From an uncultured Gammaproteobacteria bacterium (GTDB taxonomy: Bacteria; Patescibacteriota; Patescibacteriia; UBA1558; S5-K13): DNA of 64,000 nucleotides. The notes below the pieces were generated by a model, which saw nothing but the letters and a program-made list of their open reading frames with translations, was not told the DNA's origin and searched no databases. Location: assembly GCA_964424195.1 (NCBI GenBank), contig CAYRHT010000001.1, forward strand, positions 70,102 to 134,101, read 5' to 3'. Position numbers and translations under genes: made by a program. This document shows, piece after piece, positions 5,901 through 49,524 of the stretch. Position 1 is the first letter of the stretch, and each line of letters starts with the position of its first letter.

Positions 5901-6005
5901 TTCTTTATTTCTATTTGGTAAATTGTCAGGGTTAAAATATCCAGAATTTAACCATTCTGAATAAATGTCATCTTCAAATTTTTTAGCTTCGTATGCCTTT
6001 TTCAT
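2916..6005 (-). CDS. valS: Valyl-tRNA synthetase with an inserted histidine-phosphatase-like domain
   Basis: HIGH motif (PNVTGQLHIGHA), KMSKS motif, editing-domain region, WCISRQIWFGHRIPVWY and DTWFSSGLW blocks. At 1029 aa it is about 150 aa longer than typical ValRS. Confidence 0.93.
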   Translation of the reverse strand: MKKAYEAKKFEDDIYSEWLNSGYFNPDNLPNRNKETFSIVLPPPNVTGQLHIGHAAMLAYQDLMVRYHRMKGDKTLWLPGMDHAAIATQTVVDKKLKAQGIDRHQIGREKFLEEVDKFVNESKTVIKKQLQKMGSSLDWSRERYTMDEGSTKAVQKVFIDMYNDALIYRGKRVVNWCPHCQSTLADDEVEYKEQTSPFYYFKYGPVVIGTARPETKFSDKVIIVHPQDKRYKDIVGKEFEVEWIDGKIKTQVIADMSADMEMGTGAMTITPAHSMIDYELAQKYNLKIEEIINKEGQMTEAAGDLAGLPVKEARKKVVEILKSKGLVEKIDENYVHNLSVCYRCGTPIEPLPSEQWFVNVNKPIKKRKNKTLKQLASEVVKKKEIEIIPDRFNKTYFQWMDNLRDWCISRQIWFGHRIPVWYKGDEIIVPKDITKLSFMRHGITDWNKEKIIQGKKDTPLDEMNTQAIKDLIPKIKKENYDLIISSPLKRAKQTAEILNENLKLPLETNKLLVEKGFGEFEGVKKDEKFKKQHPGYSKDKLNYDIPGDSEESPAEVLKRIEIFLEETLKNNKGKKILIVCHGTLIRYIRSLMVNESPLELSEYKTSFDKPISFDIPDNHYKLKELKQDPDTLDTWFSSGLWTFSTLGGPDKTKDLKEFHPNSVMETGYDILFFWVARMILMTTYALNEKPFDTVYLHGLVRDKQGRKMSKSLGNGIDPLEMIKDYGADALRLSMIVGSTPGNDVKLYDEKIAGYRNFVNKLWNISRYILTSVEEVKLIEKKPKVKTLADKWILDELDKITFGITDKIDKFQFSPAGEELYDFTWNKLADWYLEIAKVEGDKDEILLYILQNLLKLWHPFTPYITEVIWKNFKTDLLLIQRWPELKKYKEDKKTQEEFQIIKNIIAEIRKFKNENKIDPAKFIECLIISKKYDKLINTQSPIIEKLARVKNLRTGEKLNTKIHLPNIKIYLNVDIKKSNEKEIANLRSYIKSLENKLNNEKFVDNAPTEIVEQEKKKLAEAEELLAKMSK
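4161..4712 (-). other. Histidine phosphatase (phosphoglycerate-mutase superfamily)-like domain inserted inside valS, about aa 432-615
   Basis: FMRHGITDWN (the RHG motif) and a downstream ILIVCHGTLIR (second catalytic His), about 180 aa, sit between the ValRS blocks WFGHRIPVWY and DPDTLDTWFSSGLW. Confidence 0.6.
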
Positions 6006-17057: not shown

Positions 17058-17606
17058 ATGAAAAAAATAGTGGTTTTGATGGTAGTAATAGTGGTTTTGA
17101 TGGGATGTACGGTTACAAAAGTAGTTATTATTCGTGATGGTAAAAAGATTGATTATCATGAAGACAGAAGTGTCCCTCACAATGTTGGTTTCAGTTTTGA
17201 TTATTCTGGTTTTCGAGCTCGGCTTACTAGCGATAACGTTATAGTAGCTGATTCTTGGGGATTGCCAGTAAGACTGGATAGAAGAATCTCTTCTGGATAC
17301 AAGGTTGTTCTAGATAGTCTATATCAAGGTCATTATAGTATTGATGTAGAGTTTTTACCTATCGAACAATATGAAGAGTTATTGAGTTCGGAAAAAGAGA
17401 AATTAAAGGGAAAAATTGATTTTGAAGTAGGACCAGAAGGAGATATTATTTCATTCTACGGTCAAAAAGTACAAAAAGTACTTAAGATTGAAGATGCAAT
17501 ACTTCTTAAGAGTGTTAAACCTAATCGAATAATATCTTTAGAAGAGTTGAGTAATGATCATGAAATCTGGATGAGAAGAATGCGTAAAAAAGCAGGTTTT
17601 CCTTAA
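17058..17606 (+). CDS. Hypothetical lipoprotein
   Basis: Lipobox-like MKKIVVLMVVIVVLMGC, 182 aa, no known domain. Confidence 0.5.
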   Translation: MKKIVVLMVVIVVLMGCTVTKVVIIRDGKKIDYHEDRSVPHNVGFSFDYSGFRARLTSDNVIVADSWGLPVRLDRRISSGYKVVLDSLYQGHYSIDVEFLPIEQYEELLSSEKEKLKGKIDFEVGPEGDIISFYGQKVQKVLKIEDAILLKSVKPNRIISLEELSNDHEIWMRRMRKKAGFP

Positions 17607-17617
17607 TTTTCATTAAA

Positions 17618-17660
17618 ACAAAAAAGCTCTGGTGTGTTAAACATGTCAGAGCTTTTTAAA
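17618..17660. terminator. Bidirectional terminator hairpin between convergent genes
   Basis: AAAAGCTCTG-loop-CAGAGCTTTT with A/T runs on both sides. Confidence 0.5.
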
Positions 17661-17689: not shown

Positions 17690-18136
17690 CTATATCGTAG
17701 GTTCCCATAAATTTCCATCGACTATTGGTTCACCTTGAATAAGTAACATAAGAGTATTACTAATAATCCAGGCTCCTAAGACGATGGCTAATCCAATAAT
17801 TGCACCAATTAATCTTTTTTTGGCCTTGGAAATTAATTCTTCATTACCACCAGAAGTCATCCATTGAAAGCCAGAAATAATAATCATGACTAGAAATAAT
17901 AAACCGACTAGAGTTAGAGCAATATTAATGATACCAATAATTCGATTAGGTAACGACTGTCCGTTATATAGGCCTGCTTGTTCAGCAAAATCTATTTGTT
18001 TTAAAGCTGCTTGTTCAGCAGCGGTCCATTCAATATCTTCACCTTCTTGAGCTAATAAATTATATCTCGGAACAACCAAAAAACTTAGAATTACGAAGGA
18101 TAAAATTAAAATTTGAAAGTTCTTTTTAGTTTTCAT
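17690..18136 (-). CDS. VirB2/TrbC-like pilin-like small secreted membrane protein, paralog 1 of 8
   Basis: Signal peptide, variable region, then helix-loop-helix ...LFLVMIIISGFQWMTSGGNEELISKAKKRLIGAIIGLAIVLGAW... Confidence 0.6.
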   Translation of the reverse strand: MKTKKNFQILILSFVILSFLVVPRYNLLAQEGEDIEWTAAEQAALKQIDFAEQAGLYNGQSLPNRIIGIINIALTLVGLLFLVMIIISGFQWMTSGGNEELISKAKKRLIGAIIGLAIVLGAWIISNTLMLLIQGEPIVDGNLWEPTI

Positions 18137-18153
18137 TTAATTTATTTATTTAA

Positions 18154-18636
18154 TTAAACTACCATCAATATATAGGTAACAAAACTAGCTAGTGAGTAAG
18201 ACAAAATTACAATTGCTAAACCAATGATAGCATTAGTTATATTCTTTTTAGCTTTACCAATAGTTTCTTCATTACCACCAGCAGTCATCCATTGAAAGCC
18301 AGAAATAATAATCATGATTAAGAACAAAATTCCTAGAAGACTAAGAATGGTTTTAACTATTCTAGCAATAATATCAATAATACCAGATTCTTCAGTTACA
18401 GGAGCATAACCAGCATACATAGTAGCAGTTGCATCAAGTTTTGCTTCAATAAGTTCTTTTGTTGATACTCCTTCTGGCGTTGTGTCTGGAACTGGAAGTG
18501 GTTCTATGCACTCTCCACCGATACATACTCCGCTACTGCTACAATCATTGTTAGATTCACATGCTTGAGCATTAGTAATACCAATGGCGGATAGACTGAG
18601 AAGTATAATTAAAGATATGAAGATTATTTTTTTCAT
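18154..18636 (-). CDS. Pilin-like paralog 2 (Cys-containing variable region)
   Basis: ...ILFLIMIIISGFQWMTAGGNEETIGKAKKNITNAIIGLAIV... A CxxxxCxxxxxCxxxxC cluster follows the signal peptide. Confidence 0.6.
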   Translation of the reverse strand: MKKIIFISLIILLSLSAIGITNAQACESNNDCSSSGVCIGGECIEPLPVPDTTPEGVSTKELIEAKLDATATMYAGYAPVTEESGIIDIIARIVKTILSLLGILFLIMIIISGFQWMTAGGNEETIGKAKKNITNAIIGLAIVILSYSLASFVTYILMVV

Positions 18637-18651
18637 TTTATAATGATTTAT

Positions 18652-19086
18652 TTATAAAGTTTGTCCTATTAAAATATCAACTACAAAGTAAGAAATAGCA
18701 TAGGCGGCAAGTACAATTACTAAACCAATAGTAGCATTTTTAATCCTATTTTTAGCTTTAGTAATGCTTTCTTCATTTCCTCCAGCAGTCATCCATTGAT
18801 AACCACCTATAATGATTAAAATTAAGAAGAATATACCAATTAAAGAAAGAGCAGTTTGAATAATACTACCAATAACAATTTCAACACTAGAGTTAGTATC
18901 ATAGCCAATACCACTGGCAGCATAATTAATTAACATTTCAGAATGTTTTAAATTAGGTAGAATTTCACTACTAGCTGGTTGAGAATTCTCAGTAGGTGTC
19001 ATTTGAGCTAAAACAGGACTGAATATTAAACTTAGTAAGAAAATTAACAGAAAAGAGAATACAATTCTTTTATTTTTTTTAAACAT
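18652..19086 (-). CDS. Pilin-like paralog 3
   Basis: ...FFLILIIIGGYQWMTAGGNEESITKAKNRIKNATIGLVIVLAAY... Confidence 0.6.
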   Translation of the reverse strand: MFKKNKRIVFSFLLIFLLSLIFSPVLAQMTPTENSQPASSEILPNLKHSEMLINYAASGIGYDTNSSVEIVIGSIIQTALSLIGIFFLILIIIGGYQWMTAGGNEESITKAKNRIKNATIGLVIVLAAYAISYFVVDILIGQTL

Positions 19087-19100
19087 ATTAATTTATTTTA

Positions 19101-19505
19101 TTAAACAGTAGATTTAAATAACATTTCTAATATGAAATAGGCTAGAATATAGGCTCCTAAAACAATAATTAATCCGTTAACAGCCATTCTAATTCTTTGT
19201 TTTGCTTTAGTTACTCGTTCTTCATTACCTCCGGAAAACATCCATTCATAACCACCCATAACAATTAAGATTAGAAATACAATTCCAGCAAAACCTAGAA
19301 TTGTACCAACAATTTTATTTCTAGTATCTTGAAGCATCCAAAAAGTTTGCTCTATGCTTTCAGTTGTAGCATATCCTAAATTATTAGCAGTTTCATTATA
19401 ATCTTTTCTAATAGTTTCAATAGCTTCTATAGCTTTAACAGGAACTACAAAGATATTAGATAGAATAATAGTTAATATAAATATTAGAAATATTTTTTTA
19501 AACAT
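19101..19505 (-). CDS. Pilin-like paralog 4
   Basis: ...VFLILIVMGGYEWMFSGGNEERVTKAKQRIRMAVNGLIIVLGAY... Confidence 0.6.
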   Translation of the reverse strand: MFKKIFLIFILTIILSNIFVVPVKAIEAIETIRKDYNETANNLGYATTESIEQTFWMLQDTRNKIVGTILGFAGIVFLILIVMGGYEWMFSGGNEERVTKAKQRIRMAVNGLIIVLGAYILAYFILEMLFKSTV

Positions 19506-19508
19506 AAT

Positions 19509-19964
19509 TTAACTTGTTACAGGAGGAGTTATTAATTCATTTAAAGTTATAAATATTAAATCAACTAAAATATAAGCAGCAACAATAATTATTAATCCAA
19601 TTATGGAACTTTTTATTTTATCTTTAGCTTTTTTAATAGCTTCTTCGTTTCCACCAGAATTCATCCAACCATAACCAGCAAATATTATATTCATTAATAA
19701 TATTATTCCAATAAAGGCTAGAATATAACCAATTAATCTAGCGATAATATCCTGAGGTTCCGCTGCTATTGTTCCTGTTTCATCTGTTAAGCTTGCTTCA
19801 CTAGCACTTTTTATTAAACCATCACGAGCTTCTTTTAAAGCTGAATTAGTCTCTTCTTGAGCATGAATACTGAGAATTGGTGTTAAAACAAAAGAAATAA
19901 TGATAAAACAAAATAGTATCTTTTTTATATTTAGATTCATTTTTTTATAGGTTATATAATTCAC
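19509..19964 (-). CDS. Pilin-like paralog 5
   Basis: ...ILLMNIIFAGYGWMNSGGNEEAIKKAKDKIKSSIIGLIIIVAAY... Confidence 0.6.
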   Translation of the reverse strand: MNYITYKKMNLNIKKILFCFIIISFVLTPILSIHAQEETNSALKEARDGLIKSASEASLTDETGTIAAEPQDIIARLIGYILAFIGIILLMNIIFAGYGWMNSGGNEEAIKKAKDKIKSSIIGLIIIVAAYILVDLIFITLNELITPPVTS

Positions 19965-20013
19965 ATCTCCTCGCTCTATATAATATAAAGCGAGAAATCT
20001 AAACTATATTTTT

Positions 20014-20409
20014 TTAAACACTATCACCTAAAGATCCGCCAATTGTACCAACAACATAGGTAGCAATTGCGTAAGCAGCTAGGATGATAATTAGACCAAC
20101 TACACCGGCTCCTAATAATTTTTTAGCTTCTCCAACTTTTTCTTCATTTCCACCAGAAGTCATCCATTTAAAACCACCAATTAGAATCATAACTAGAGCT
20201 ATCAAGCCTAATAATCCTAAAAGAGTGTTAATTAGATTAACAGCAGTACCTTCTAGGTCTCCTTCTGCTAGATTGGGAACCGTTGGGACCGTAATTCCAT
20301 CTCCAGAATCTGGTGGGGTATTACCGGTTTGAGCAAATACTCCTACAGCAGATACAGCGAAAACGAAAATTAAGACGAAACTAATAATGTTTTTAGTTAG
20401 TTTTGACAT
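20014..20409 (-). CDS. Pilin-like paralog 6
   Basis: ...IALVMILIGGFKWMTSGGNEEKVGEAKKLLGAGVVGLIIILAAY... Confidence 0.6.
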   Translation of the reverse strand: MSKLTKNIISFVLIFVFAVSAVGVFAQTGNTPPDSGDGITVPTVPNLAEGDLEGTAVNLINTLLGLLGLIALVMILIGGFKWMTSGGNEEKVGEAKKLLGAGVVGLIIILAAYAIATYVVGTIGGSLGDSV

Positions 20410-20523
20410 TTTGTTTTTCTTCCTTTCTTTTTCTCATTTAACTTAACGTTAAATGAGCTTAATGTCTCGTTATTTATACGAGCTTTTATTATTTATATAA
20501 ATTATATACAACTTAATATATCT

Positions 20524-20552
20524 ATTATACTATTTTTTATGAAAATTGTATA
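20524..20552 (-). promoter_or_regulatory. Candidate internal promoter (minus strand) in the 155-nt gap before paralog 6
   Basis: Minus-strand TATACA-17 nt-TATAAT. Weak -35 in an AT-rich background. Confidence 0.25.
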
Positions 20553-20564
20553 ATGTTTTAATTT

Positions 20565-20915
20565 CTATTGTTCACCACCCAGTATCTTAAATACTAGATT
20601 TAAGACAGAATAACTAGTAAAGATAGTTACTATTCCTAAAACTGCCCAAATTAAAATTCCCTTTCCCTTTTTAATCTTTTCTTCATTTCCACCAGAGGTC
20701 ATCCAAGTTAAGCCACCGAAAATAAACATTAATAGAGCTAGAGAACCAACTACACCTAGAGCACCTTTAATAATTCTACCAATTAAGTCTGGAATACTTG
20801 TAGTCCCTAGAGGATTTGTTAGTTCATTGTCAGCTGTCGTTGCATAGCATACTCCAATTGAAGAAACAAGTACTAGTGAGATTAGTAAAAAACTAATTAT
20901 TTTTTTGTTTTTCAT
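20565..20915 (-). CDS. Pilin-like paralog 7
   Basis: ...LALLMFIFGGLTWMTSGGNEEKIKKGKGILIWAVLGIVTIFTSY... Confidence 0.6.
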   Translation of the reverse strand: MKNKKIISFLLISLVLVSSIGVCYATTADNELTNPLGTTSIPDLIGRIIKGALGVVGSLALLMFIFGGLTWMTSGGNEEKIKKGKGILIWAVLGIVTIFTSYSVLNLVFKILGGEQ

Positions 20916-20928
20916 TTTAAATATTTTA

Positions 20929-21513
20929 TTATTTAAATTCTGTTGATTCTAATTTGAAGTTTTTATCTTCTTCAGCTTTTTCTATTAAAGTATCTTGAAC
21001 AAAACTTATTATCATATAAGCACCTAAGAAAATAACTAGTCCAATAATAGTTTGAACCATCATGGTTCGAGCACTTTTAATCTTTTCTTCACTGCCTCCA
21101 GAAAATATCATTTGAATACCAGCAATAATAAAGAATAGGAGAGCTACACTACCAACGATTCCTAATAATTGTTTAGAAATACTAATAGCTTTATATACTA
21201 GATCTTTCACATCATATTCACCATATTCTCTAAGGCATTCTTCTATGTTAATTTGTTTATAACATTGAGCACCTTTACACTTTCCATCTTCAAATAGTTC
21301 TTGGTCTTTACAATTTTCTTCTTTAGTTGTCTCCCAATATATTCCATCTTGATTCTTGTCTTTACCTTCTGCATCTCGACATTTAAGGTCTTTAGTGTCA
21401 AATGCTTTACATTCAAAGACATCCTTAGCATAAACAATCGGAATATTAACAACATTTAGAAGGATAGTTATTAAAAAGACTGTTAATATACTAAGTTTTA
21501 TTTTTCTAGACAT
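20929..21513 (-). CDS. Pilin-like paralog 8 (divergent; Cys-rich 90-aa exposed region)
   Basis: ...ALLFFIIAGIQMIFSGGSEEKIKSARTMMVQTIIGLVIFLGAY... The motif is degenerate (SGGSEE). Six Cys in the variable part. The start abuts the stop of the upstream SBP gene. Confidence 0.55.
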   Translation of the reverse strand: MSRKIKLSILTVFLITILLNVVNIPIVYAKDVFECKAFDTKDLKCRDAEGKDKNQDGIYWETTKEENCKDQELFEDGKCKGAQCYKQINIEECLREYGEYDVKDLVYKAISISKQLLGIVGSVALLFFIIAGIQMIFSGGSEEKIKSARTMMVQTIIGLVIFLGAYMIISFVQDTLIEKAEEDKNFKLESTEFK

Positions 21514-22896
21514 TTATTTAATGGTTTGATTTATTCTGGTAGCTGTATTTTTTAATAAGTTTCTAATTGCTTTATCTACTAAATTATCATTTTTTATCTT
21601 ATCAACTAATTCTATAATAGCTTTCTCAGCTTCAGCTAGTGATTCTCCTCGATACCATGATTGAGCAGTTAAGATTTGATCAACGAATGGTTTAATTTCT
21701 AGATTCTGAGCTTGGACATCTTTAAGAGATTTTAGAGCAGTTGGTTTATTAGTTTCTTCTAGATATATTTTAACATTTTCTTTCCTAGTAGCAAAATCAA
21801 TAAATCCCCAAGCAGCATCTCTATGTTTAGTTTTATGAGAAACTGTCATTAACCAATAATTAGCAAAGTTTGTTGGTCGAAGAGTATTAGAGATTTGAGG
21901 TACTGGAGCAGTTTTTAAATTAAACTTATCAGTAGTTCTGGATTTAATTTGTTTAAGATGGTAAGGATAGCCAAAAAAGAAAGCTACTTGTCCATTAATA
22001 AAGGCATCTAAAGCATTATCCTGATCTTTATTCCAAGAGTAAACTTCTTTAATTGGATTAGAATAATCATTGTAAAAGTTAATAGCTTCCATAACTAAAT
22101 CTTGATTTTCTGGATTTTCAAAATTAATTCTATTATTAGGAGTTAATAAGTCAACTCCATTTTGGAGCATTAAAAGTACTAAAATATCAACAGCATTAGT
22201 AATATTATTTGTTGTTCCCAGAGCAGTTCCAGATTGTTCAAAGCTATTATTCTCATTCAGGAGACTAATATTTTTAACCATGCTATTAAATTCAGTCCAA
22301 GTTTTTGGTGGATAGGAAATATTAGCATATCTTAACAAATCTTCGTTATAGAATAATCCCAGAGTATCTAAACTTAAGGGTAGTCCATAGATTTCATTTT
22401 CTTTGACCACATCTTCATAAACTACATTGGCATAATTTTGAACCAAGTCATTTAATGATGTTGTCCGAACCTCTTTAACGCTATCAATAATATCTGTCTT
22501 TTGAAAACCACCAATACCACTTGATTTTACTTCACGATAAGGGAGTATAATTTTAGCTGGGAGAGGAGTAATTTTACTCTTATACTCTGCTAACCAATCA
22601 TTCGGTAAGAAATAGATATCTGGACCACGATCTTCTGCCCAAGCTTCTAATAATTGTTGTTCGTATTCATCAATACCAAATTTTTTGTAATTAATAGAGA
22701 TAGTTGGGTGCAGTTTTTTGTAGCCATCAAATAATGGTTTCAAACTAGTACTATCTTCATAAACTGACCAGACATTTAGAGTTAGAGGTTTAAGTTGAAC
22801 AGCTTTTCTTTTAAAAGGATTATTAGTACATCCAAATCCAGAAGTAATTAAGATTACAAAAACAAAACCGAGGATAATTAGTTTATTTTTAGACAT
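21514..22896 (-). CDS. Extracellular solute-binding lipoprotein (ABC-type family 1, MalE-like), orphan
   Basis: Lipoprotein signal ...ITSGFGCTNN, 460 aa periplasmic-binding-protein-like sequence. No permease or ATPase genes nearby. Confidence 0.6.
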   Translation of the reverse strand: MSKNKLIILGFVFVILITSGFGCTNNPFKRKAVQLKPLTLNVWSVYEDSTSLKPLFDGYKKLHPTISINYKKFGIDEYEQQLLEAWAEDRGPDIYFLPNDWLAEYKSKITPLPAKIILPYREVKSSGIGGFQKTDIIDSVKEVRTTSLNDLVQNYANVVYEDVVKENEIYGLPLSLDTLGLFYNEDLLRYANISYPPKTWTEFNSMVKNISLLNENNSFEQSGTALGTTNNITNAVDILVLLMLQNGVDLLTPNNRINFENPENQDLVMEAINFYNDYSNPIKEVYSWNKDQDNALDAFINGQVAFFFGYPYHLKQIKSRTTDKFNLKTAPVPQISNTLRPTNFANYWLMTVSHKTKHRDAAWGFIDFATRKENVKIYLEETNKPTALKSLKDVQAQNLEIKPFVDQILTAQSWYRGESLAEAEKAIIELVDKIKNDNLVDKAIRNLLKNTATRINQTIK

Positions 22897-22915: not shown

Positions 22916-23791
22916 TTAAAAAGTCTTTTTTAAGTATTTTTTTAACTCTTTACCAATTTCTTTATGCTCTAAAGCAAAATCAATAGTAGCTTTAATAAAT
23001 TCTAACTTATTACCACAATCATAATATTTTCCATTTTCTATTTCACAAGCATAAAGAGGAACACCTTGTTTTTTTAGAGCATTAATAGCGTCTACTAACC
23101 AGACTTCTCCGCCTTTACCTCTTTTGGTTTTTTCTAAAACTTTAAATATTTCGGGAGGTAAAATATATGCTCCTAATAGAGCTAGGTTTGAAGGAGCGTT
23201 CTTAGGATTTGGTTTCTCTACTATATTCTTTATCTCGTAGACATTATCTTCTATTTTTTTAACATCAGCTACACCATATCTAGCTAAATCTTTCTTGTTT
23301 TTTATTCTTAATCCAGAAATAACCATCCCACCATATTTTTCATAAACTTTAATCATTTGTTTTAGTCTTGGTGGCTGAGAATGAATAAACTCATCGCCCC
23401 AAACAACAGCAAAAGCTTCGTCACCAACTACATCCTTAGCGTTTAAAACTGGAGTACCATTACCGTAAGGACCTTTTTGTCTAATATAAATAAAGTTAGC
23501 TAAATCAGCTATCTTTTTAATTTCTTGTCTTTGTTTATTCTTACCTTGTTTTTTAAGCCAGTTTTGTAATTCATAATTGTAATCAAAATGATCTTCAATG
23601 GCTCTTTTGCTACTGCCAGTAACTATAACCACATCTTTAATACCAGATGCTACCACTTCTTCAACAACATATTGAATGATAGGCTTATCTACTACGGGTA
23701 ACATTTCTTTAGGTTGGGCTTTAGTAGCAGGTAGAAATCTAGTTCCTAATCCAGCTGCCGGGATAACTACTTTTCTAATCTTATTTTTCAT
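22916..23791 (-). CDS. galU: UTP-glucose-1-phosphate uridylyltransferase
   Basis: KVVIPAAGLGTRFLPATKAQPKEMLPVVDKPIIQYVVEE, 291 aa. Confidence 0.85.
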   Translation of the reverse strand: MKNKIRKVVIPAAGLGTRFLPATKAQPKEMLPVVDKPIIQYVVEEVVASGIKDVVIVTGSSKRAIEDHFDYNYELQNWLKKQGKNKQRQEIKKIADLANFIYIRQKGPYGNGTPVLNAKDVVGDEAFAVVWGDEFIHSQPPRLKQMIKVYEKYGGMVISGLRIKNKKDLARYGVADVKKIEDNVYEIKNIVEKPNPKNAPSNLALLGAYILPPEIFKVLEKTKRGKGGEVWLVDAINALKKQGVPLYACEIENGKYYDCGNKLEFIKATIDFALEHKEIGKELKKYLKKTF

Positions 23792-23915
23792 ATAATTAAA
23801 AACTCAAATTTATTATTTAATTCGATATGTTTATTATACTAATAATTCCTAGTTTAGGTCAATCTAATTTTTTAATTTAATTTGTAGTTTTCCCTATTTA
23901 TTGTATTATTAACTT

Positions 23916-24833
23916 ATGAAAAAATTTATATGTCAGGAAAATAAAATTAGGTTAGATAAATTTTTAGTTGAAAGACTAAAGAGTTTGTCGCGTTCTAAAA
24001 TTCAACACCTAATTGAAGATGGGCAAGTAAAAGTTAATTCAGAAATTGTTAATAAAAAACACCATTGGTTGGATGAGAAGGATAAAGTTGAGATATTACT
24101 TGCACCTTCGGGTCCCGTTGCTAAGAAAAAAGCCTCTTGTTTTAAAAAAGATATTAAAGTCGTCAAGAAAGCTAAAGATTATGTAGTTATAGAAAAGCCT
24201 TCTGGTTTGATTGTTCATGGAACTAAAGAAATTCACGAATATTCTCTAGCTGATTGGTTGATTAAAAAATATCCTCAGATTAAAAAAGTAGGAGATGATA
24301 TTGAATTCAGACCAGGCATAGTTCATCGTTTGGATAAGAAAGTTTCTGGTCTAATGGTTGTAGCTTTAAATCAAGAATCTTTTGAAAACTTAAAAGAACA
24401 GTTTAAAGACCGGAGTGTAACTAAAAAATATTTAGCTTTAGTTCATGATCAGATGGAAGAGTATGATGGAAAAGTAGATTTTCCAATTGAGCGTTCTAAG
24501 AGAAGTGGTAAAATGGTAGCTAAGCCAAAGCATTTTGATGAAAAAGAAGCTTTAACTCTTTGGGAGACTAAAGAAAAATTTGCTCATCATACTTTATTAG
24601 ATGTTCAAATTAAAACTGGAAGAAATCATCAGATTAGAGCCCATATGCAAGCTATTAATCATCCAGTTGTTGGTGATGATTTGTATAATATTAAAGGGAA
24701 TAAGGATAAATTTAATTTAAAAAGAGTTTTTTTACACGCTTATCGTTTAGAGTTTAGAGATTTGAATGGTGAATTACAAAAATTTGAAATAGATTTGCCA
24801 GAAGATTTAAAAAATGTAATTGAAGAACTATGA
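23916..24833 (+). CDS. RluA-family 23S rRNA pseudouridine synthase (RluD-like)
   Basis: N-terminal S4 domain (IRLDKFLVERL) and catalytic HRLDKKVSGLMVVA, 305 aa. Confidence 0.85.
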   Translation: MKKFICQENKIRLDKFLVERLKSLSRSKIQHLIEDGQVKVNSEIVNKKHHWLDEKDKVEILLAPSGPVAKKKASCFKKDIKVVKKAKDYVVIEKPSGLIVHGTKEIHEYSLADWLIKKYPQIKKVGDDIEFRPGIVHRLDKKVSGLMVVALNQESFENLKEQFKDRSVTKKYLALVHDQMEEYDGKVDFPIERSKRSGKMVAKPKHFDEKEALTLWETKEKFAHHTLLDVQIKTGRNHQIRAHMQAINHPVVGDDLYNIKGNKDKFNLKRVFLHAYRLEFRDLNGELQKFEIDLPEDLKNVIEEL

Positions 24834-27772: not shown

Positions 27773-30700
27773 ATGGATTTAGCATATAATCATCAAGATA
27801 TAGAGCCGAAATGGCAAAAAAAATGGGAAGATTCTCATGTTTTTAGAGCTAATGATAAATCTAAAAAAGAAAAAAAATATGTTTTAGATATGTTTCCTTA
27901 TCCTTCTGGAGCTGGATTACATGTTGGTCATCCCGAAGGCTATACAGCTACTGATATTTATTCTCGTTATTTAAGAATGAAGGGCTATGAAGTAATTCAT
28001 CCTTTAGGATGGGATGCTTTTGGTTTGCCTGCTGAAAACTATGCAATTAAGATTGGAGTTCATCCTCAAAAGAGCACTCAAGAAAATATTGCTAATTTTA
28101 CTAAACAAATAAAGAGTTTAGGTTTTTCCTATGATTGGGAAAGAGAAATAAATACTTCTGATCCAAGTTACTACAAGTGGTCTCAATGGTTTTTCTTACT
28201 CTTATACAAAAATAACTTAGCCTATCAGAAAAAAGCCCCAGTTAATTGGTGTGAATCTTGTCAGACTGTTTTAGCCAATGAACAAGTAGTCGATGGAAAA
28301 TGTGAGCGTTGTCAGAGTGAAGTTATTCAAAAAGATTTAAAACAATGGTTTTTTAAGGTAACTGAATATGCTGATGAGTTAATTAATGGTTTAGATAAAT
28401 TAGAATGGTCTCATGCTTTGAAAACTATGCAAAAAAATTGGATTGGAAAGTCAGAAGGAGCTGAAATTGATTTTCAAATTAAATCTACAAAATTAAAAGT
28501 CACAGAGTTTAAGAAAATATATTTTGCAACAGGGAATAAATCTAAATTAAAAAGATTACAAAAATTATTTAAAAAAATTAACCCCAAAATTAAAATTGAA
28601 CAAGTTCCTGATTATGTGGATGTAGTAGAAGATGGAAAAGATGCTTGGGAAAATTCATTAAAGAAAGCAAAGCCTTATCAAGGAAAATATGATCTACCAG
28701 TTTTGTCTATGGACACTGCTGTTTTCTTTAGTAATGAAGATAAGGTTGATCCTTTAGCTCCTAAAAGGTCTTGTTTAGGGGGAGTTGATGAAAAAGATTT
28801 AAGCCAAGAAGAAATTGCAGAAAAAGCCTTAGAATTTTACAAAAGCATTGCTCAGAAAAATGGTGGAGAAAAAGAATTCTATTATGAAGATTTCTGGACA
28901 ATTTTGTATCCTAATGGAGAATATCAACAAAGTAAAAATAGGAGAGAATATATTTTAACTGATCAGGAAGCTGGTGATTTAGATATCTATTTCCCAATGA
29001 AAAATTTATATTATTCAAAAGTTAGCGGAAAGAGATTTTTTGAAAATACTAATGAAGATTATTTTAAAGAATTTGCATCTCAGATTAATGCTTTGAAAGA
29101 ATTGGTTTTAGCAAAGACTATTAAAGTTTTTACAACTCGACCAGATACTTTGTATGGAGCAACGTATATGGTTTTAGCTCCGGAACATAAATTAGTTCAA
29201 GATTTAAAGAGTCAAATTGAGAATTTTGATGAAGTAGAAAAATATATTGAAACTACTAAGAAAAAAAGTGACTTAGAAAGAACAGATTTGAATAAAAATA
29301 AGAGTGGAGTGGAATTAAAAGGTTTAAAAGCTATTAATCCAGTTAATAATCAAGAATTACCAGTATATATTTCTGATTATGTTTTAGCTAGCTATGGAAC
29401 GGGAGCAATTATGTGTGTGCCAGCTCATGATCAGCGAGATTTTGAATTTGCTCAGAAATTTAAGCTACCAATTATTGATGTAGTTAAATCTGAACGAAAA
29501 ACTAAAGTTTTAATTGTTCATGGATTTATGGCAAATAGTAAGAGTGATTGGTTTCCGTGGCTTAAAAAAGAATTAGAGCAAAAGAATTACGAAGTTGTAA
29601 CTCCTGATATGCCAAATACAGAGCATCCAATTCGAAAAGATTGGCTAAAGAGTTTGGAGACTATAATTAATGATTTTACAGAAAATGATATTGTTATTGG
29701 TCATAGTATGGGAGCTTTTGCAGCTCAATATTTAGCTCAAAAAACTAAAATTAATAAATTATTTTTGATTGCTCCGGTTTCTGAATTCATGGTTAATGAT
29801 GAAACTAGAGTAGAGAGTATTAAAAATACTTTTACAGAAGAACAGATAGAAATATTAAGAAAGTTTACAGATTATAAATTAGATTATCAGAGTATTAATG
29901 CCAATGTAGAGAAAATTTATGCTTATTTCTCAGACGATGATCCATATACCTCTACTAAACAGCAAGAACAATTAACAAAAAAATTACCAGGTAAATATAT
30001 GGTTTTGAATAAAAAAGGTCATATTAATGTTAGTGATAGTAGAACCAGTGTTTCAGAATTACCAGAAATTATTCCAGACATCGAAGAAAAGATTAGAGCT
30101 ACAGAAGCTAATGGTTTAATGGAGAATTCCGAAGAATTCAGTGGTATGGACTCTGAAAAAGCCAAGAAAAAAATTACTAAAAAAGCTGACGGTGAATTAA
30201 CTACTCAATACAAGATTAGAGACTGGTTAGTTTCTCGACAAAGATATTGGGGAGCTCCAATTCCAATTATTCATTGTTCTAAATGTGGTTCAATTCCGGT
30301 TCCAGAAAAAGACTTACCAGTTCTTTTACCTAATGATGTAAAAGATTTTAGACCAACTGGACAACCACCACTAGCTTCATCCAAAGAATTTAATAAAAAT
30401 GTAAAATGCCCTAAATGTGGAGCTAATGCTACTCGAGAACATGATACTATGGATGGTTTTGTGGATAATTCTTGGTACTATTATCGTTATTTAGATCCTA
30501 AAAATGAAAAGGAATTTTGTTCTAAGAAATTAATTAAAGAATGGATGCCTGTAGAAACCTATGTAGGTGGAACTGAACATGCTGTTGGTCATTTAATCTA
30601 TTCTAGATTTTTTACTAAAGTTTTAAGGGATAATGGTTACTTAAAATTTGATGAACCATTTTTAAAATTAATTAATCAAGGATTAATTTTAGGAACTGAT

Positions 30701-31378
30701 GGACAAAAGATGAGTAAGAGTTTAGGAAATGTGGTAAATCCTGATGAAGTAGTTAAAGAATATGGAGCTGATAGTTTTAGAATGTATGAAATGTTTATGG
30801 GTCCTTTAGAAGATTCTAAACCTTGGAATACGGATGGCATTAAAGGTTTAAGAAGGTTTTTAGACAAGAATTGGAATTATTTTTCAAATATTAGTTATGG
30901 AGAAGACTCTAATAATCAAGTAAATTCAAGTTTGCATAAAACTATTAAAAAAGTTAGTGAAGATATTCAAAACTTTAGATTTAATACAGCTATTAGTTCT
31001 CTAATGGTTTGTTTTAAAGAGGTTAATTCTTTAACCAATCCTCGGCCGGAGTTAATAAATCCATATTTAATTATGCTTTCTACTCTAGCTCCTCATATTG
31101 GAGAGGAGATTTGGAGTAAGTTAGGAAATAAAGGGTTTATTTGTCAGCAAGAATGGCCTCAGTATGACGAGAAGTTAATTGTTGAAGATAAAATAAATTT
31201 ACCAATTCAAATCAATGGAAAATTACGAGCTACTCTAGAAATAGAAGTAGATATTTCTGAAGATGCTTTGAAAAAACAGATTTTAGAATTAGAAAATTTA
31301 AATAAATATATTGAAGGTAAGGAAATTATTAAATTTATTTATATTAAGAATAAAATTGTTAATATTGTTATAAAATAA
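27773..31378 (+). CDS. leuS: Leucyl-tRNA synthetase with two inserted enzyme-like domains
   Basis: HVGH (HIGH) motif, TTRPDT, HDQRDFEFA, RDWLVSRQRYWGAPIP, KMSKS (QKMSKSLGN). At 1201 aa it is about 350 aa longer than bacterial LeuRS. Confidence 0.93.
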   Translation: MDLAYNHQDIEPKWQKKWEDSHVFRANDKSKKEKKYVLDMFPYPSGAGLHVGHPEGYTATDIYSRYLRMKGYEVIHPLGWDAFGLPAENYAIKIGVHPQKSTQENIANFTKQIKSLGFSYDWEREINTSDPSYYKWSQWFFLLLYKNNLAYQKKAPVNWCESCQTVLANEQVVDGKCERCQSEVIQKDLKQWFFKVTEYADELINGLDKLEWSHALKTMQKNWIGKSEGAEIDFQIKSTKLKVTEFKKIYFATGNKSKLKRLQKLFKKINPKIKIEQVPDYVDVVEDGKDAWENSLKKAKPYQGKYDLPVLSMDTAVFFSNEDKVDPLAPKRSCLGGVDEKDLSQEEIAEKALEFYKSIAQKNGGEKEFYYEDFWTILYPNGEYQQSKNRREYILTDQEAGDLDIYFPMKNLYYSKVSGKRFFENTNEDYFKEFASQINALKELVLAKTIKVFTTRPDTLYGATYMVLAPEHKLVQDLKSQIENFDEVEKYIETTKKKSDLERTDLNKNKSGVELKGLKAINPVNNQELPVYISDYVLASYGTGAIMCVPAHDQRDFEFAQKFKLPIIDVVKSERKTKVLIVHGFMANSKSDWFPWLKKELEQKNYEVVTPDMPNTEHPIRKDWLKSLETIINDFTENDIVIGHSMGAFAAQYLAQKTKINKLFLIAPVSEFMVNDETRVESIKNTFTEEQIEILRKFTDYKLDYQSINANVEKIYAYFSDDDPYTSTKQQEQLTKKLPGKYMVLNKKGHINVSDSRTSVSELPEIIPDIEEKIRATEANGLMENSEEFSGMDSEKAKKKITKKADGELTTQYKIRDWLVSRQRYWGAPIPIIHCSKCGSIPVPEKDLPVLLPNDVKDFRPTGQPPLASSKEFNKNVKCPKCGANATREHDTMDGFVDNSWYYYRYLDPKNEKEFCSKKLIKEWMPVETYVGGTEHAVGHLIYSRFFTKVLRDNGYLKFDEPFLKLINQGLILGTDGQKMSKSLGNVVNPDEVVKEYGADSFRMYEMFMGPLEDSKPWNTDGIKGLRRFLDKNWNYFSNISYGEDSNNQVNSSLHKTIKKVSEDIQNFRFNTAISSLMVCFKEVNSLTNPRPELINPYLIMLSTLAPHIGEEIWSKLGNKGFICQQEWPQYDEKLIVEDKINLPIQINGKLRATLEIEVDISEDALKKQILELENLNKYIEGKEIIKFIYIKNKIVNIVIK
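28478..29119 (+). other. LeuRS insertion 1 (about aa 236-449) with a Ham1/RdgB-like ATGNxxK motif
   Basis: KKIYFATGNKSKLKRLQKLF...DLPVLSMDTAVFF lies between the LeuRS blocks SEGAEIDF and KVFTTRPDT. It resembles the N-terminus of non-canonical NTP pyrophosphatases. This assignment is tentative. Confidence 0.4.
29495..30067 (+). other. LeuRS insertion 2 (about aa 575-765): YdeN/RBBP9-type alpha/beta serine hydrolase domain
   Basis: KVLIVHGFMANSKSDWFPWLKKELE...IVIGHSMGA (GxSxG nucleophile elbow) lies between HDQRDFEFAQKFKLPIIDVV and YKIRDWLVSRQRYWG. Confidence 0.6.
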
Positions 31379-43915: not shown

Positions 43916-43921
43916 TTTAAT

Positions 43922-46831: not shown

Positions 46832-46863
46832 AAATATTTTGTTTAAATTTATAATTAGTATAT

Positions 46864-49409: not shown

Positions 49410-49524
49410 ACTAAAAGATAAAAATATATAGCTGGAATCTATTTTTTTATTATTTATCTTGTTAATTGGAATTAGGTATGTTATAATGTTTCTGTAAGTA
49501 CTAAATTAATTAGTAACTATAGAA

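What the first reader, a model, noticed from the sequence alone, without database searches (positions are those of the whole stretch)
17690..21513. Eight-gene tandem array of VirB2/TrbC-topology pilin-like paralogs with an invariant WMTSGGNEE loop
Eight consecutive same-strand genes encode 116-194-aa proteins with identical architecture: a cleavable signal peptide, a variable exposed segment, then a highly conserved unit. The unit is hydrophobic helix 1 (L.L.G..FL.MII..G), a loop G(F/Y)xWMTSGGNEE...KAK, and hydrophobic helix 2 (IGL.IVL.AY). This is the topology of conjugative type IV secretion system (T4SS) pilins (VirB2/TrbC). It may correspond to the little-characterised putative T4SS-pilin family reported for Gram-positives and CPR bacteria, but I cannot confirm the family without an HMM. 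Conservation sits entirely in the helix-loop-helix unit. The exposed N-terminal segments are unrelated in sequence and length, two of them Cys-rich, which suggests diversified surface tips on a common polymerising core. Intergenic gaps are 0-49 nt except one 155-nt gap containing a perfect 10-bp hairpin (20436-20460) just upstream of the RBS of paralog 6, so there are probably two transcription units. No VirB4, VirD4 or VirB11 ATPase is in the window, so the assembly machinery is elsewhere or unconventional.
Basis: partly seen in the sequence, partly recalled or inferred. Interest (0 to 1): 0.8.

Follow-up and report, generated by a model that had tools for sequence, protein, structure and literature searches.

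The report
Eight tandem VirB2-like pilin genes
This is a row of eight diverged copies of a small membrane "pilin" gene (Pfam T4SS_pilin, distantly related to the VirB2 conjugative pilin) on the chromosome of an ultra-small Patescibacteria bacterium; such arrays were already catalogued in 2025, so it is a typical new example, and its only apparently unreported features are a tight, conserved linkage to a sugar-binding lipoprotein gene and distance from any secretion ATPase gene.

Summary
Eight consecutive minus-strand genes (17690-21513) encode 116-194-aa proteins. Each has a signal peptide, a variable segment, and a two-helix hydrophobic hairpin around a GG(N/S)EE…K/R-rich loop.

All eight pass the gathering cutoff of Pfam PF18895 (T4SS_pilin). 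One also passes TrbC/VirB2. A profile of the family aligns to Agrobacterium VirB2 (hhalign 77%, E 2e-5).

The kind is known. A pilin series is essential in Southlakia epibionticum (Wang 2023). In addition, 441 arrays of 2-11 VirB2-like genes were reported in 383 Patescibacteria assemblies (Quiñonero-Coronel 2025).

- 58 of 79 related Komeilibacteria-, Falkowbacteria- and Magasanikbacteria-type loci carry arrays of at least 5 genes, up to 14.
- The eight paralogs have positional orthologs in relatives.
- A sugar-type SBP lipoprotein gene sits directly upstream of the first pilin in 51 of 79 loci, and in 4 of 4 reverse tests.
- The third gene has its own conserved promoter-like element and is bracketed by stem-loops, so it is probably the major subunit.
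- No VirB4 lies within about 84 kb here, or within ±10 kb in 83 related loci.

Pilus formation itself is inferred, not shown.

Corrections: the motif is not invariant, and the hairpin is at 20433-20457.

The parts
23833..23862 (-). Promoter-like site (TTGACC, 18 nt, TATAAT; 11 of 12 matches) upstream of galU. Candidate start of transcription unit 1 (galU-SBP-g1-g2).
   Evidence: This is a consensus match only.
22916..23791 (-). galU-like nucleotidyltransferase (UTP-glucose-1-phosphate uridylyltransferase type). It is conserved upstream of the SBP gene in 26 of 79 related loci.
   Evidence: Pfam NTP_transferase, 5e-30. Synteny.
21514..22896 (-). SBP_bac_1 sugar-type solute-binding lipoprotein (conserved SGFGC lipobox). 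Its stop codon directly abuts the ATG of g1. It is the conserved operon partner of the array.
   Evidence: Pfam 1.6e-32. Nearest solved structures are sugar and oligosaccharide SBPs. A homologue lies directly upstream of pilin 1 in 51 of 79 loci, with a gap under 100 nt in 43. The reverse test succeeded 4 of 4 times. A Cys follows the hydrophobic region in 113 of 120 homologues.
20929..21513 (-). g1: PF18895 pilin-like protein, 194 aa, with an 85-aa charged ectodomain containing 6 Cys. Its positional orthologue (p1) carries the largest ectodomain in most of the related arrays examined (185-402 aa total in the closer relatives).
20565..20915 (-). g2: PF18895 pilin-like protein, 116 aa, with the shortest variable segment. 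It is the best-conserved orthologue (76% local BLASTP identity to L002; 72% over full length).
20524..20552 (-). Internal promoter-like element (-10 TATAAT at 20524-20529, preceded by AAAAAATAG). Candidate start of transcription unit 2.
   Evidence: The same AAAAAT(A/T)GTATAAT element occurs in the equivalent gap of L002, L019, L041, L028 and L078.
20433..20457 (-). Perfect 10-bp stem-loop in the g3 5'UTR, about 5 nt upstream of the RBS (GAAAGGAAG at 20419-20427). It is not a terminator, because no U-run follows.
   Evidence: dG -11.8 kcal/mol, z -5.7. A hairpin at the same position but with a different sequence occurs in five relatives, including a compensatory T:A to A:T change in L002.
20014..20409 (-). 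g3: PF18895 pilin-like protein, 131 aa, and the only paralogue that also passes PF04956 TrbC/VirB2. It is the candidate major subunit: it has its own promoter, stem-loops on both sides and the highest GC content of the eight.
19968..19996 (-). 13-bp stem-loop directly after the g3 stop codon. Its 3' arm overlaps the GAGGAG sequence in front of g4. It may stabilise the g3 transcript or attenuate read-through.
   Evidence: dG -15.4 kcal/mol, z -4.3. A stem-loop occurs at the same position after the g3 orthologue in L002, L019, L041, L028, L078 and L003.
19509..19964 (-). g4: PF18895 pilin-like protein, 151 aa.
19101..19505 (-). g5: PF18895 pilin-like protein, 134 aa.
18652..19086 (-). g6: PF18895 pilin-like protein, 144 aa.
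18154..18636 (-). g7: PF18895 pilin-like protein, 160 aa, with a 4-Cys segment (CESNNDCSSSGVCIGGEC) that is absent from its orthologues in L002, L019 and L041.
17690..18136 (-). g8: PF18895 pilin-like protein, 148 aa, the last gene of the array.
17621..17657 (.). Stem-loop flanked by an A-run and a U-run between the convergent genes g8 and ORF 17058-17606. Probable bidirectional intrinsic terminator that ends the array transcript.
   Evidence: dG -13.5 kcal/mol, z -4.8. Sequence.

Best explanation
The region is a chromosomal array of eight anciently diverged VirB2-like pilin genes (Pfam PF18895). The host is a Patescibacteria (CPR) bacterium of the Komeilibacteria neighbourhood.

Shown here:
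- Each product has a Sec-type signal peptide with a (-3,-1) V/I/L/T/C-x-A site, five times followed by Gln as in Agrobacterium VirB2.
- This is followed by a net-acidic variable segment, helix 1, a short loop GG(N/S)EE then K/R-rich, helix 2 and a short tail.

Inferred from the positive-inside rule and VirB2 precedent: after cleavage, the N-terminal segment and the C-terminus lie outside the cell and the conserved loop lies in the cytoplasm.

Inferred by homology with VirB2/TrbC and with the essential pilin series of Southlakia epibionticum: the mature proteins form a membrane pool. A VirB4-type T4SS encoded elsewhere in the genome extracts and polymerises them into a pilus-like fibre or conduit toward a host cell. 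The conserved hairpin would form the packing core, the GGNEE/K-rich loop would line the lumen, and the variable segments would decorate the surface.

The eight genes appear to be a fixed set of distinct subunits rather than interchangeable cassettes, because each has a positional orthologue in related genomes.

Expression probably runs in two units. Unit 1 is galU-SBP-g1-g2. Unit 2 is g3-g8, from a conserved internal promoter. g3 is bracketed by 5' and 3' stem-loops and is probably the abundant major subunit, with the others minor or specialised. The sugar-type SBP lipoprotein, whose stop codon abuts the g1 start codon (consistent with translational coupling), is a conserved partner of unknown role.
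For: Family:
- All 8 proteins exceed the PF18895 gathering score, and g3 exceeds the PF04956 score.
- The 120 best of 537 homologues of g3 (E <= 0.001) all carry PF18895 (many also PF04956), and the sources that name an organism mostly call them Patescibacteria.
- hhalign against verified Agrobacterium VirB2 gives probability 76.8%, E 2.1e-5. The GGNEEKVG stretch aligns as an 8-aa loop insertion.

Topology:
- Three hydrophobic segments, acidic variable parts and a K/R-rich loop.
- A helical hairpin with pLDDT of about 95.

Host:
- The 952-kb source contig carries housekeeping genes.
- The closest relatives are Komeilibacteria MAGs.

Known kind:
- An essential pilin series lies inside the T4SS cluster of S. 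epibionticum (PMC10633639).
- 441 arrays of 2-11 genes were reported in 383 assemblies, with mean identity 25% (PMC12102498). Here the mean is 31%, range 20-40%.

Fixed subunit set:
- In L002, six of the eight genes are reciprocal best hits of the same-position gene. In L019 and L041 it is six and six (seven, counting one-way best hits).
- g1-g3 still match p1-p3 in the more distant L028 and L078 (g3 one-way), and g1 and g2 match p1 and p2 in L015.
- Orthologue cores are 43-86% identical against 32-58% between paralogues.

Expression design:
- (the long gap most often follows pilin 2: 32 of 71 cases).

SBP partner:
-.
Against: - No pilus has been seen in any Patescibacteria.
- No VirB4, VirB6 or VirD4 lies in the 64-kb window or in the 10 kb beyond each end.
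- None was found in the flanks inspected in the 83 related loci, in contrast to the Saccharimonadia situation.
- Whether this genome has a VirB4 at all could not be tested.
- Seven of eight paralogues are below the PF04956 cutoff, and the hhalign probability is moderate.
- The profile finds no solved pilin by sequence.
- Relatives in which the same domain is fused to 900-2000-aa extracellular regions are hard to fit into a tightly packed filament as a major subunit.
Confidence: 0.6

Rival explanations
1. T4SS-independent surface module. The PF18895 hairpin would be a membrane anchor or small oligomerising unit that displays variable ectodomains. With the co-transcribed sugar-binding lipoprotein and galU, it would form a cell-surface system for glycan capture or host attachment and would not need VirB4.
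For: - The array is not linked to any T4SS gene over about 84 kb here, nor in any flank inspected in the 83 related loci.
- Linkage to the SBP is tight and holds in both directions. It persists when the rest of the array is split off by inserted genes (the '1+6' loci).
- The same domain is fused to large Ig-like or giant extracellular regions in L017, L025 and L042.
- Neighbouring genes concern sugar activation and glycosyl transfer: galU, a GT2 glycosyltransferase and PGI.
Against: - There is detectable homology to VirB2/TrbC.
- In Saccharimonadia the homologous series sits inside the T4SS cluster and is essential (PMC10633639).
- 1,948 Patescibacteria assemblies contain both a VirB2-like gene and VirB4, and in about 40% of them the two are not adjacent (PMC12102498). 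Distance from virB4 is therefore common and not diagnostic.
Confidence: 0.25
2. Interchangeable variant cassettes. The eight paralogues would be alternative versions of one major pilin, kept for antigenic or host-range variation as proposed for Bartonella and Anaplasma virB2 paralogues, and would turn over rapidly.
For: - Variable ectodomains diverge fast even between orthologues (17-50% identity, against 77-90% for the neighbouring SBP and GalU in L002).
- Array size varies from 2 to 14 among relatives.
- g7 gained a Cys-rich insert that its orthologues lack.
- PMC12102498 proposes this reading.
Against: - Position-by-position orthology is retained across several genomes.
- Paralogues are old (20-40% identity) with no sign of recent duplication or gene conversion. 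The longest DNA repeat family is only 60-75% identical.
- Only g3 has the conserved promoter and stem-loop design. This argues for distinct roles rather than equivalence.
Confidence: 0.08
3. Secreted effector or toxin subunits exported through Sec and then through a T4SS, like the pertussis toxin S1-S5 array.
For: Each protein has an N-terminal signal peptide, and the genes are small and arrayed (PMC7427843).
Against: - Each mature protein retains two strongly hydrophobic helices of about 25 residues, and so would stay in the membrane.
- The Pfam and hhalign links are to pilins, not toxins.
- The same proteins were later re-annotated as pilins (PMC10633639, PMC12102498).
Confidence: 0.03
4. 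Holins or another unrelated family of small membrane proteins.
For: The only support is small size and two transmembrane helices.
Against: - No holin family appears in the Pfam or NCBIfam hits.
- There is no phage context.
- No relative occurs in 2.9 million viral contigs.
- The cleavable signal peptide and extracellular variable domain are atypical of holins.
Confidence: 0.01

Closest known systems
VirB2-like pilin series of 'Ca. Southlakia epibionticum' ML1 (T4SS cluster SEML1_0006-0019; Wang et al. 2023, PMC10633639) and the six-gene 'Sec-secreted array' of Nanosynbacter lyticus TM7x (McLean et al. 2020, PMC7427843)
   Same: - Several tandem, sequence-divergent but structurally similar small proteins.
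- A signal peptide plus a two-helix hairpin.
- A Patescibacteria chromosome.
- The same HMM families were used to detect them (PMC12102498).
   Different: - Those arrays sit inside the T4SS gene cluster next to VirB4 and VirB6. Here no T4SS gene lies within about 84 kb.
- Here the conserved neighbour is an SBP lipoprotein gene plus galU.
- There are eight genes here rather than six.
- Essentiality is known only for ML1.
Patescibacterial VirB2 arrays surveyed by Quiñonero-Coronel et al. 2025 (PMC12102498): 441 arrays of 2-11 genes in 383 assemblies
   Same: - The definition is met: tandem PF18895/PF04956 genes.
- Low within-array identity (25% mean and 54% maximum there; 31% mean and 40% maximum here).
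   Different: - That survey highlights Microgenomatia and Saccharimonadia. Relatives of this window are Komeilibacteria-, Falkowbacteria-, Magasanikbacteria-, Uhrbacteria- and Buchananbacteria-type MAGs, which I recall as GTDB class ABY1.
- Arrays here reach 14 genes by my HMM count.
- The paper's main text does not mention the SBP linkage (no occurrence of 'solute', 'substrate-binding' or 'ABC transporter'). I also did not find positional orthology or the internal-promoter design in the passages read; its supplements were not read.
VirB2 (Agrobacterium T-pilin) and TrbC (RP4), Pfam PF04956
   Same: - The order of parts: leader peptide, helix 1, W-M motif, short loop, helix 2.
- A(-1)/Q(+1) at the predicted cleavage site in five of eight proteins.
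- hhalign probability 77%.
   Different: - The host is a monoderm.
- The loop is 8 residues longer (the GGNEE insertion).
- The N-terminal ectodomains are long and variable, of roughly 15-85 aa.
- No adjacent virB operon.
- Cyclisation and lipid co-assembly are unknown.
virB2 paralogue clusters of Bartonella and Anaplasma phagocytophilum (as cited in PMC12102498)
   Same: Tandem amplification and diversification of the T4SS pilin gene.
   Different: - Those are diderm pathogens of animals, and the paralogues are thought to serve antigenic variation.
- Here the paralogues are old and positionally conserved.
Mbov_0395 / MMCAP2_0565 pilin-like conjugal transfer protein of Mycoplasma ICEs (NCBIfam NF045849)
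   Same: Best NCBIfam match for all eight proteins over the two-helix core (20-39 bits). It is also from a monoderm.
   Different: - All scores are below the 40-bit cutoff.
- Those are conjugal-transfer genes of mobile ICEs. Here the genes form a chromosomal array in a housekeeping context.

Membership tests
Pfam PF18895 T4SS_pilin | Whole-protein HMM score at or above the curated gathering score (26.6 bits). | tested here: met
   The eight scores are 31.2, 47.7, 43.6, 37.2, 36.5, 44.5, 44.3 and 41.9 bits for g1-g8. The precomputed Pfam hits on the public gene calls agree.
Pfam PF18895 T4SS_pilin | Architecture: a signal peptide followed by two hydrophobic helices joined by a short loop. | tested here: met
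   Hydropathy segments. AlphaFold helices at 3-23, 52-83 and 89-129. Cleavage itself was not tested, because no SignalP tool was available.
VirB2/TrbC conjugative pilins (PF04956) | HMM score at or above the gathering score (27.9 bits). | tested here: inconclusive
   g3 scores 28.7 bits and passes. g1, g5, g6, g7 and g8 score 17-21 bits, below the cutoff. g2 and g4 have no hit.
VirB2/TrbC conjugative pilins (PF04956) | Profile-level homology to a bona fide VirB2. | tested here: met
   hhalign of 74 family members against Agrobacterium VirB2 gives probability 76.8%, E 2.1e-5, with 55 columns spanning both helices. The query was verified as 99.2% identical to annotated virB2. The strength is moderate.
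VirB2/TrbC conjugative pilins (PF04956) | Fold similarity to solved pilin structures. | tested here: inconclusive
VirB2/TrbC conjugative pilins (PF04956) | Encoded with T4SS machinery (VirB4 and others). | tested here: not met
   No T4SS family was found in the window ORFs scanned, within 10 kb beyond each end, or in the flanks inspected in 83 related loci. The rest of the 952-kb contig could not be read.
VirB2/TrbC conjugative pilins (PF04956) | Polymerises into an extracellular filament, with phospholipid, in a VirB4-dependent way. | not testable with these tools
   This needs cryo-EM or cryo-ET, or genetics.
Patescibacterial VirB2-like pilin arrays (PMC12102498, PMC10633639) | At least two tandem VirB2-like genes with low mutual identity on a Patescibacteria chromosome. 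| tested here: met
   Eight genes at 20-40% pairwise identity. CPR-type housekeeping context and relatives.
Patescibacterial VirB2-like pilin arrays (PMC12102498, PMC10633639) | Embedded in the T4SS cluster and essential for growth on the host (the S. epibionticum case). | tested here: not met
   The array is not in a T4SS cluster (calls above). Essentiality is not testable here.
Type IV pilus (T4P) pilins | Class III signal peptide (G/FTLIE-type N-terminus cut by prepilin peptidase PilD). | tested here: not met
   The N-termini are ordinary Sec-type (a K-rich n-region, a hydrophobic h-region, then x-A/Q). No G-F/M-T-L-I-E motif is present.
Holins | Match to a holin family and a phage lysis-cassette context. 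| tested here: not met
   No holin hits. No relatives in viral contigs. The context is housekeeping genes.

The most novel reading that the evidence does not exclude
In Komeilibacteria-, Falkowbacteria- and Magasanikbacteria-type Patescibacteria, the VirB2-like array may not be an accessory of a conjugation-type machine. It may be the fibre or conduit part of a nutrient-acquisition apparatus whose dedicated receptor is the co-transcribed sugar-binding lipoprotein. The first pilin (large ectodomain, start codon abutting the SBP stop codon) would dock the SBP. The g3-type major subunit would build the fibre. Host-derived glycans or sugars would be captured at or through it. This would be a pilus-coupled substrate-binding system with no described counterpart. 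It would give a concrete handle on how CPR epibionts extract nutrients.
Probability: 0.12. Interest if true: 0.8.

Novelty: new member of a known kind. Interest (0 to 1): 0.35.

Why it matters
Patescibacteria make up a large share of bacterial diversity. They appear to live on other microbes, but how they attach to and draw nutrients from hosts is largely unknown. The T4SS and its pilin series are among the few systems shown to be essential, in one Saccharibacterium, and their function is still described as "completely unknown" (PMC11665869).

This window adds no new kind of element. It does show that, in a different and uncultured branch, the pilin array is a stable, ordered set of eight distinct subunits. 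The array has one probable major pilin, lies away from virB4, and is consistently tied to a sugar-binding lipoprotein gene.

These points can be tested. They sharpen two questions: is the fibre heteromeric, and is it connected to substrate capture?

Tried and rejected
- **Sequence search of solved structures.** A profile search against all PDB chains found nothing. The only hit was a spurious 'GGNEE' stretch in superoxide dismutase at E 8.4.
- **Hunt for VirB4 near pilins in relatives.** Every large or Walker-A ORF inspected was something else: PPDK, a histidine kinase, DUF2079, a ComM-like Mg-chelatase, H+-PPase, NusA, a Laminin_G protein, an AddA-like helicase and FtsK.
- **VirB4 on the source contig.** I could not obtain a CPR VirB4 query sequence. 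The rest of the 952-kb contig therefore remains unsearched.
- **Viral contigs.** No relative of the family was found.
- **Replication origin at about 24 kb.** GC skew changes sign there, which suggested an origin. DnaA boxes are not enriched (20 observed against 19 expected) and do not cluster there. The skew follows gene orientation.
- **Discarded call.** (DNA alignment) used wrongly guessed coordinates and is not used. The intergenic comparison rests.
- **NCBIfam NF045849.** The Mycoplasma ICE pilin-like family is the best NCBIfam match for all eight proteins but is always below its cutoff. Membership is not claimed.

Full report
**1. What is there**

ORF listing shows eight consecutive minus-strand ORFs between 17690 and 21513. 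I number them in transcription order:

| Gene | Coordinates | Length (aa) |
|---|---|---|
| g1 | 20929-21513 | 194 |
| g2 | 20565-20915 | 116 |
| g3 | 20014-20409 | 131 |
| g4 | 19509-19964 | 151 |
| g5 | 19101-19505 | 134 |
| g6 | 18652-19086 | 144 |
| g7 | 18154-18636 | 160 |
| g8 | 17690-18136 | 148 |

- The public gene calls on the source contig are the same.
- Every protein has an N-terminal hydrophobic signal-like segment, a variable segment and two further hydrophobic segments around a short loop.
- The DNA of the conserved part forms an 8-copy repeat family of 95 nt at 60-73% identity. The relatedness is therefore not chance.
- Full-length pairwise identity is 20-40% (mean 31%). The 72-aa core is 32-58% identical (mean 43%). 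The mature N-terminal segments are about 14% identical, which is noise.

- 'WMTSGGNEE' is exact in only three of the eight. The truly invariant positions are the scattered L, G, L and G of helix 1, GG.EE, and one G in helix 2.
- The perfect 10-bp hairpin lies at 20433-20457, not 20436-20460.

**2. Family**

- All eight proteins exceed the gathering score of Pfam PF18895, 'T4SS_pilin' (31-48 bits against 26.6).
- PF04956 (TrbC/VirB2) is the next family for six of them, and g3 passes its cutoff (28.7 against 27.9).
- NCBIfam's best match for all eight is the Mycoplasma ICE 'Mbov_0395 pilin-like conjugal transfer protein', always below its cutoff.
- A 74-sequence alignment of the family aligns to Agrobacterium VirB2 with hhalign probability 76.8% and E 2.1e-5 over both helices. 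The stretch 'GGNEEKVG' appears as an 8-residue insertion in the inter-helix loop.
I then verified it as 99.2% identical to annotated 'pilin major subunit VirB2'.
- The predicted cleavage sites obey the (-3,-1) rule (V/C/V/I/V/V/T/L-x-A). Five are followed by Gln, as at the VirB2 processing site. The VirB2 site is from my own knowledge of the T-pilin literature.
- AlphaFold models g3 as a disordered variable segment plus a confident helical hairpin (pLDDT about 95).
- Fold searches were uninformative because the fold is a plain hairpin. No solved structure is found by sequence.
- No holin or other family competes, and the family is absent from viral contigs.

**3. Host and context**

- The window is part of a 952,420-bp metagenomic contig.
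- It has about 29% GC. It carries tRNAs and housekeeping genes: ValRS, LeuRS, RuvC, YebC, TsaD/E, trigger factor, EF-P, SSB and S6.
- The closest genomes are Komeilibacteria MAGs (Patescibacteria, Parcubacteria group in NCBI taxonomy). Next come Falkowbacteria, Magasanikbacteria, Uhrbacteria, Buchananbacteria and Jacksonbacteria. From memory, these are GTDB class ABY1.
- No VirB4, VirD4, VirB6 or VirB11 family occurs in the 42 window ORFs of at least 100 aa that were scanned, which reach 60220. None occurs in the 10 kb beyond either end of the window on the source contig.

**4. What is already known**

- McLean 2020 described such arrays in TM7x as a 'novel secreted protein array' (PMC7427843).
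- Wang 2023 re-annotated them by structure as pilins inside the essential T4SS cluster of S. epibionticum (PMC10633639).
- Quiñonero-Coronel 2025 surveyed them using exactly PF18895 and PF04956. They found 441 arrays of 2-11 genes in 383 assemblies, with mean identity 25% and maximum 54% (PMC12102498).
- A 2025 review highlights them as the only VirB2-like pilins in monoderms (PMC12857230).

The finding is therefore a new member of a known kind.

**5. What the comparison adds**

*(a) Arrays are the rule in this branch.* I collected 79 related loci from species-representative genomes and scored them with an HMM of the window's core. Of these, 58 have arrays of at least 5 genes, and the largest has 14.

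*(b) The eight genes are an ordered, old set.*
- In L002, six of the eight are reciprocal best hits of the gene at the same position (p1-p5 and p8). In L019 and L041 the same-position matches number seven (six reciprocal).
- g1-g3 still match p1-p3 in the more distant L028 and L078, and g1 and g2 match p1 and p2 in L015.
- Orthologue cores are 43-86% identical and the variable segments only 17-50%, while the neighbouring SBP and GalU are 77% and 90% identical in L002.
- The ectodomains therefore evolve fast on a conserved scaffold, but the genes are not shuffled cassettes.

*(c) A sugar-binding lipoprotein gene is a conserved partner.*
- The gene directly upstream (21514-22896) belongs to SBP_bac_1. 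Its nearest solved structures are sugar and oligosaccharide binding proteins.
- Its stop codon abuts the ATG of g1.
- A homologue lies on the same strand directly upstream of the first pilin in 51 of 79 loci. The gap is under 100 nt in 43 of them, and several overlap by 4 nt.
- In the reverse direction, I picked four SBP homologues purely by SBP similarity (42-49% identity). All four are followed by pilin genes: directly in two, after one unannotated gene in a third, and in the fourth by an unannotated gene in the pilin-1 position before the contig ends.
- The link persists in the '1+6' loci, where SBP and pilin 1 are separated from the other six pilins by four to seven unrelated genes.
- 113 of 120 homologues have a Cys after the hydrophobic region, mostly as SGF(G/S)C. 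The protein is therefore probably a lipoprotein.
- The 2025 survey's main text does not mention this link. No paper in the searchable library combines Patescibacteria, VirB2 and solute-binding.

*(d) Expression design.*
- The 155-nt g2-g3 gap holds a -10-like element (AAAAAATAGTATAAT), then the 10-bp hairpin, then the RBS GAAAGGAAG.
- The same order is found in L002, L019, L041, L028 and L078, with a conserved -10 and RBS but different hairpin sequences. L002 includes a compensatory change.
- Long intra-array gaps fall most often after pilin 2 (32 of 71 cases).
- A second stem-loop (19968-19996, dG -15.4 kcal/mol) follows the g3 stop codon and overlaps the GAGGAG in front of g4. It recurs at the same position in six relatives.
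- A stem-loop with flanking A- and U-runs (17621-17657) ends the array.
- I infer two transcription units: galU-SBP-g1-g2, from a promoter-like site at 23833-23862, and g3-g8.
- I also infer that g3 is the abundant major subunit. It is the most VirB2-like paralogue.

*(e) No VirB4 near these arrays.* No VirB4 was found in the flanks inspected around these arrays in any related locus.

**6. Mechanism**

*Shown:*
- Family membership.
- The hydrophobic segment pattern, with the membrane orientation inferred from the charge distribution.
- The conserved operon structure.

*Inferred:*
- Sec insertion and type I signal peptidase cleavage.
- N-terminus out, loop in, C-terminus out.
- A membrane pool of subunits.
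- Extraction and polymerisation by a VirB4-type T4SS encoded elsewhere.
- The conserved hairpin as the packing core, the GGNEE/K-rich loop facing the lumen, and the variable acidic or Cys-rich ectodomains on the surface.
- g3 as the major subunit and the others as minor or specialised subunits.
- The role of the SBP is unknown. It could be a docked receptor.

I put about 0.6 on this model. The main rival (about 0.25) is a T4SS-independent surface module working with the SBP. That rival is favoured by the absence of any T4SS linkage and by relatives in which the same domain carries 900-2000-aa extracellular regions. The cassette-variation, secreted-toxin and holin readings are weak, for the reasons given under the rival explanations.

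**7. Verdict**

- The element is a typical example of an already-described Patescibacteria feature.
- Interest is moderate to low for the array itself. The SBP linkage, positional orthology and major-subunit design add some value, because they appear unreported and can be tested.

Noticed in passing
window 27773-31378 (+) and 2916-6005 (-): Two class I aminoacyl-tRNA synthetases carry extra enzyme domains inserted in the polypeptide. LeuRS (1201 aa) has a Ham1-like segment (residues 249-319) and a serine-hydrolase / alpha-beta-hydrolase domain (579-755). ValRS (1029 aa) has a histidine-phosphatase domain (438-601).
   Followed up: no
window 34346-48249 (+): A 3189-aa ORF (its only Pfam hit is CBM_4_9) is followed by 969-aa and 461-aa ORFs with no Pfam or NCBIfam hit. 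They are presumably giant surface proteins. None matches the pilin-core HMM.
   Followed up: partly
window 48345-50980 (+): A Fic/DOC protein is followed by an AbiEi-like antitoxin and an AbiEii nucleotidyltransferase toxin.
   Followed up: no
L017 10004-18899; L025 7178-15787; L042 7125-15733: In some related genomes the PF18895 pilin domain sits at the N-terminus of very large proteins. One is about 900 aa with a Big_5 Ig-like domain, followed by a protein of about 2000 aa. The pilin hairpin can therefore carry huge C-terminal extracellular extensions.
   Followed up: partly
L023 3156-12050; L081 9001-15481; about 24 of the 79 loci: A recurrent '1+6' layout: SBP and pilin 1, then an HTH_25/Glucodextran_B protein, a methyltransferase, an unknown gene and a UPF0102 protein (plus two opposite-strand genes in L023), then six pilins. 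The SBP-pilin 1 pair stays together while the rest of the array is displaced.
   Followed up: partly
L015 5433-5442; L020 8071-8080; L033 9336-9345: A perfect DnaA-box-like decamer, GTTATCCACA, lies in the pilin 2-pilin 3 intergenic gap of several more distant relatives. It is possibly a regulator site. It is absent from the window's own gap.
   Followed up: partly
window about 23800-24000: GC skew changes sign and gene orientation flips here (galU on the minus strand, rluD on the plus strand, divergent). DnaA boxes are not enriched or clustered, so this probably reflects coding-strand bias rather than an origin.
   Followed up: yes
L086 1-9811 (same contig, beyond the window's 3' end): A de novo purine biosynthesis cluster (PurB, PurE, a PurC/PurQ-like fusion, PurM, PurL, PurA, FolD, IMPDH) sits next to the window. 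This is unusual for Patescibacteria, which are generally described as lacking nucleotide synthesis.
   Followed up: no
L085 17542-20696 (same contig, beyond the window's 5' end): An OLD-family (AAA_15 + TOPRIM) protein and a T2SSE/PilB-type ATPase. The ATPase belongs to type IV pilus or T2SS machinery, not T4SS.
   Followed up: no
record titles of L008, L009, L011-L013 and many others: Many contigs with CPR-type pilin arrays and housekeeping synteny are deposited as 'uncultured Gammaproteobacteria bacterium' MAGs. This is evidently a placeholder or a mislabel.
   Followed up: no
window 17058-17606 (+): The convergent downstream neighbour is a 182-aa protein with a lipoprotein-like N-terminus (…LMGC) and no family hit. 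No homologue of it turned up in any of the 79 related loci.
   Followed up: partly
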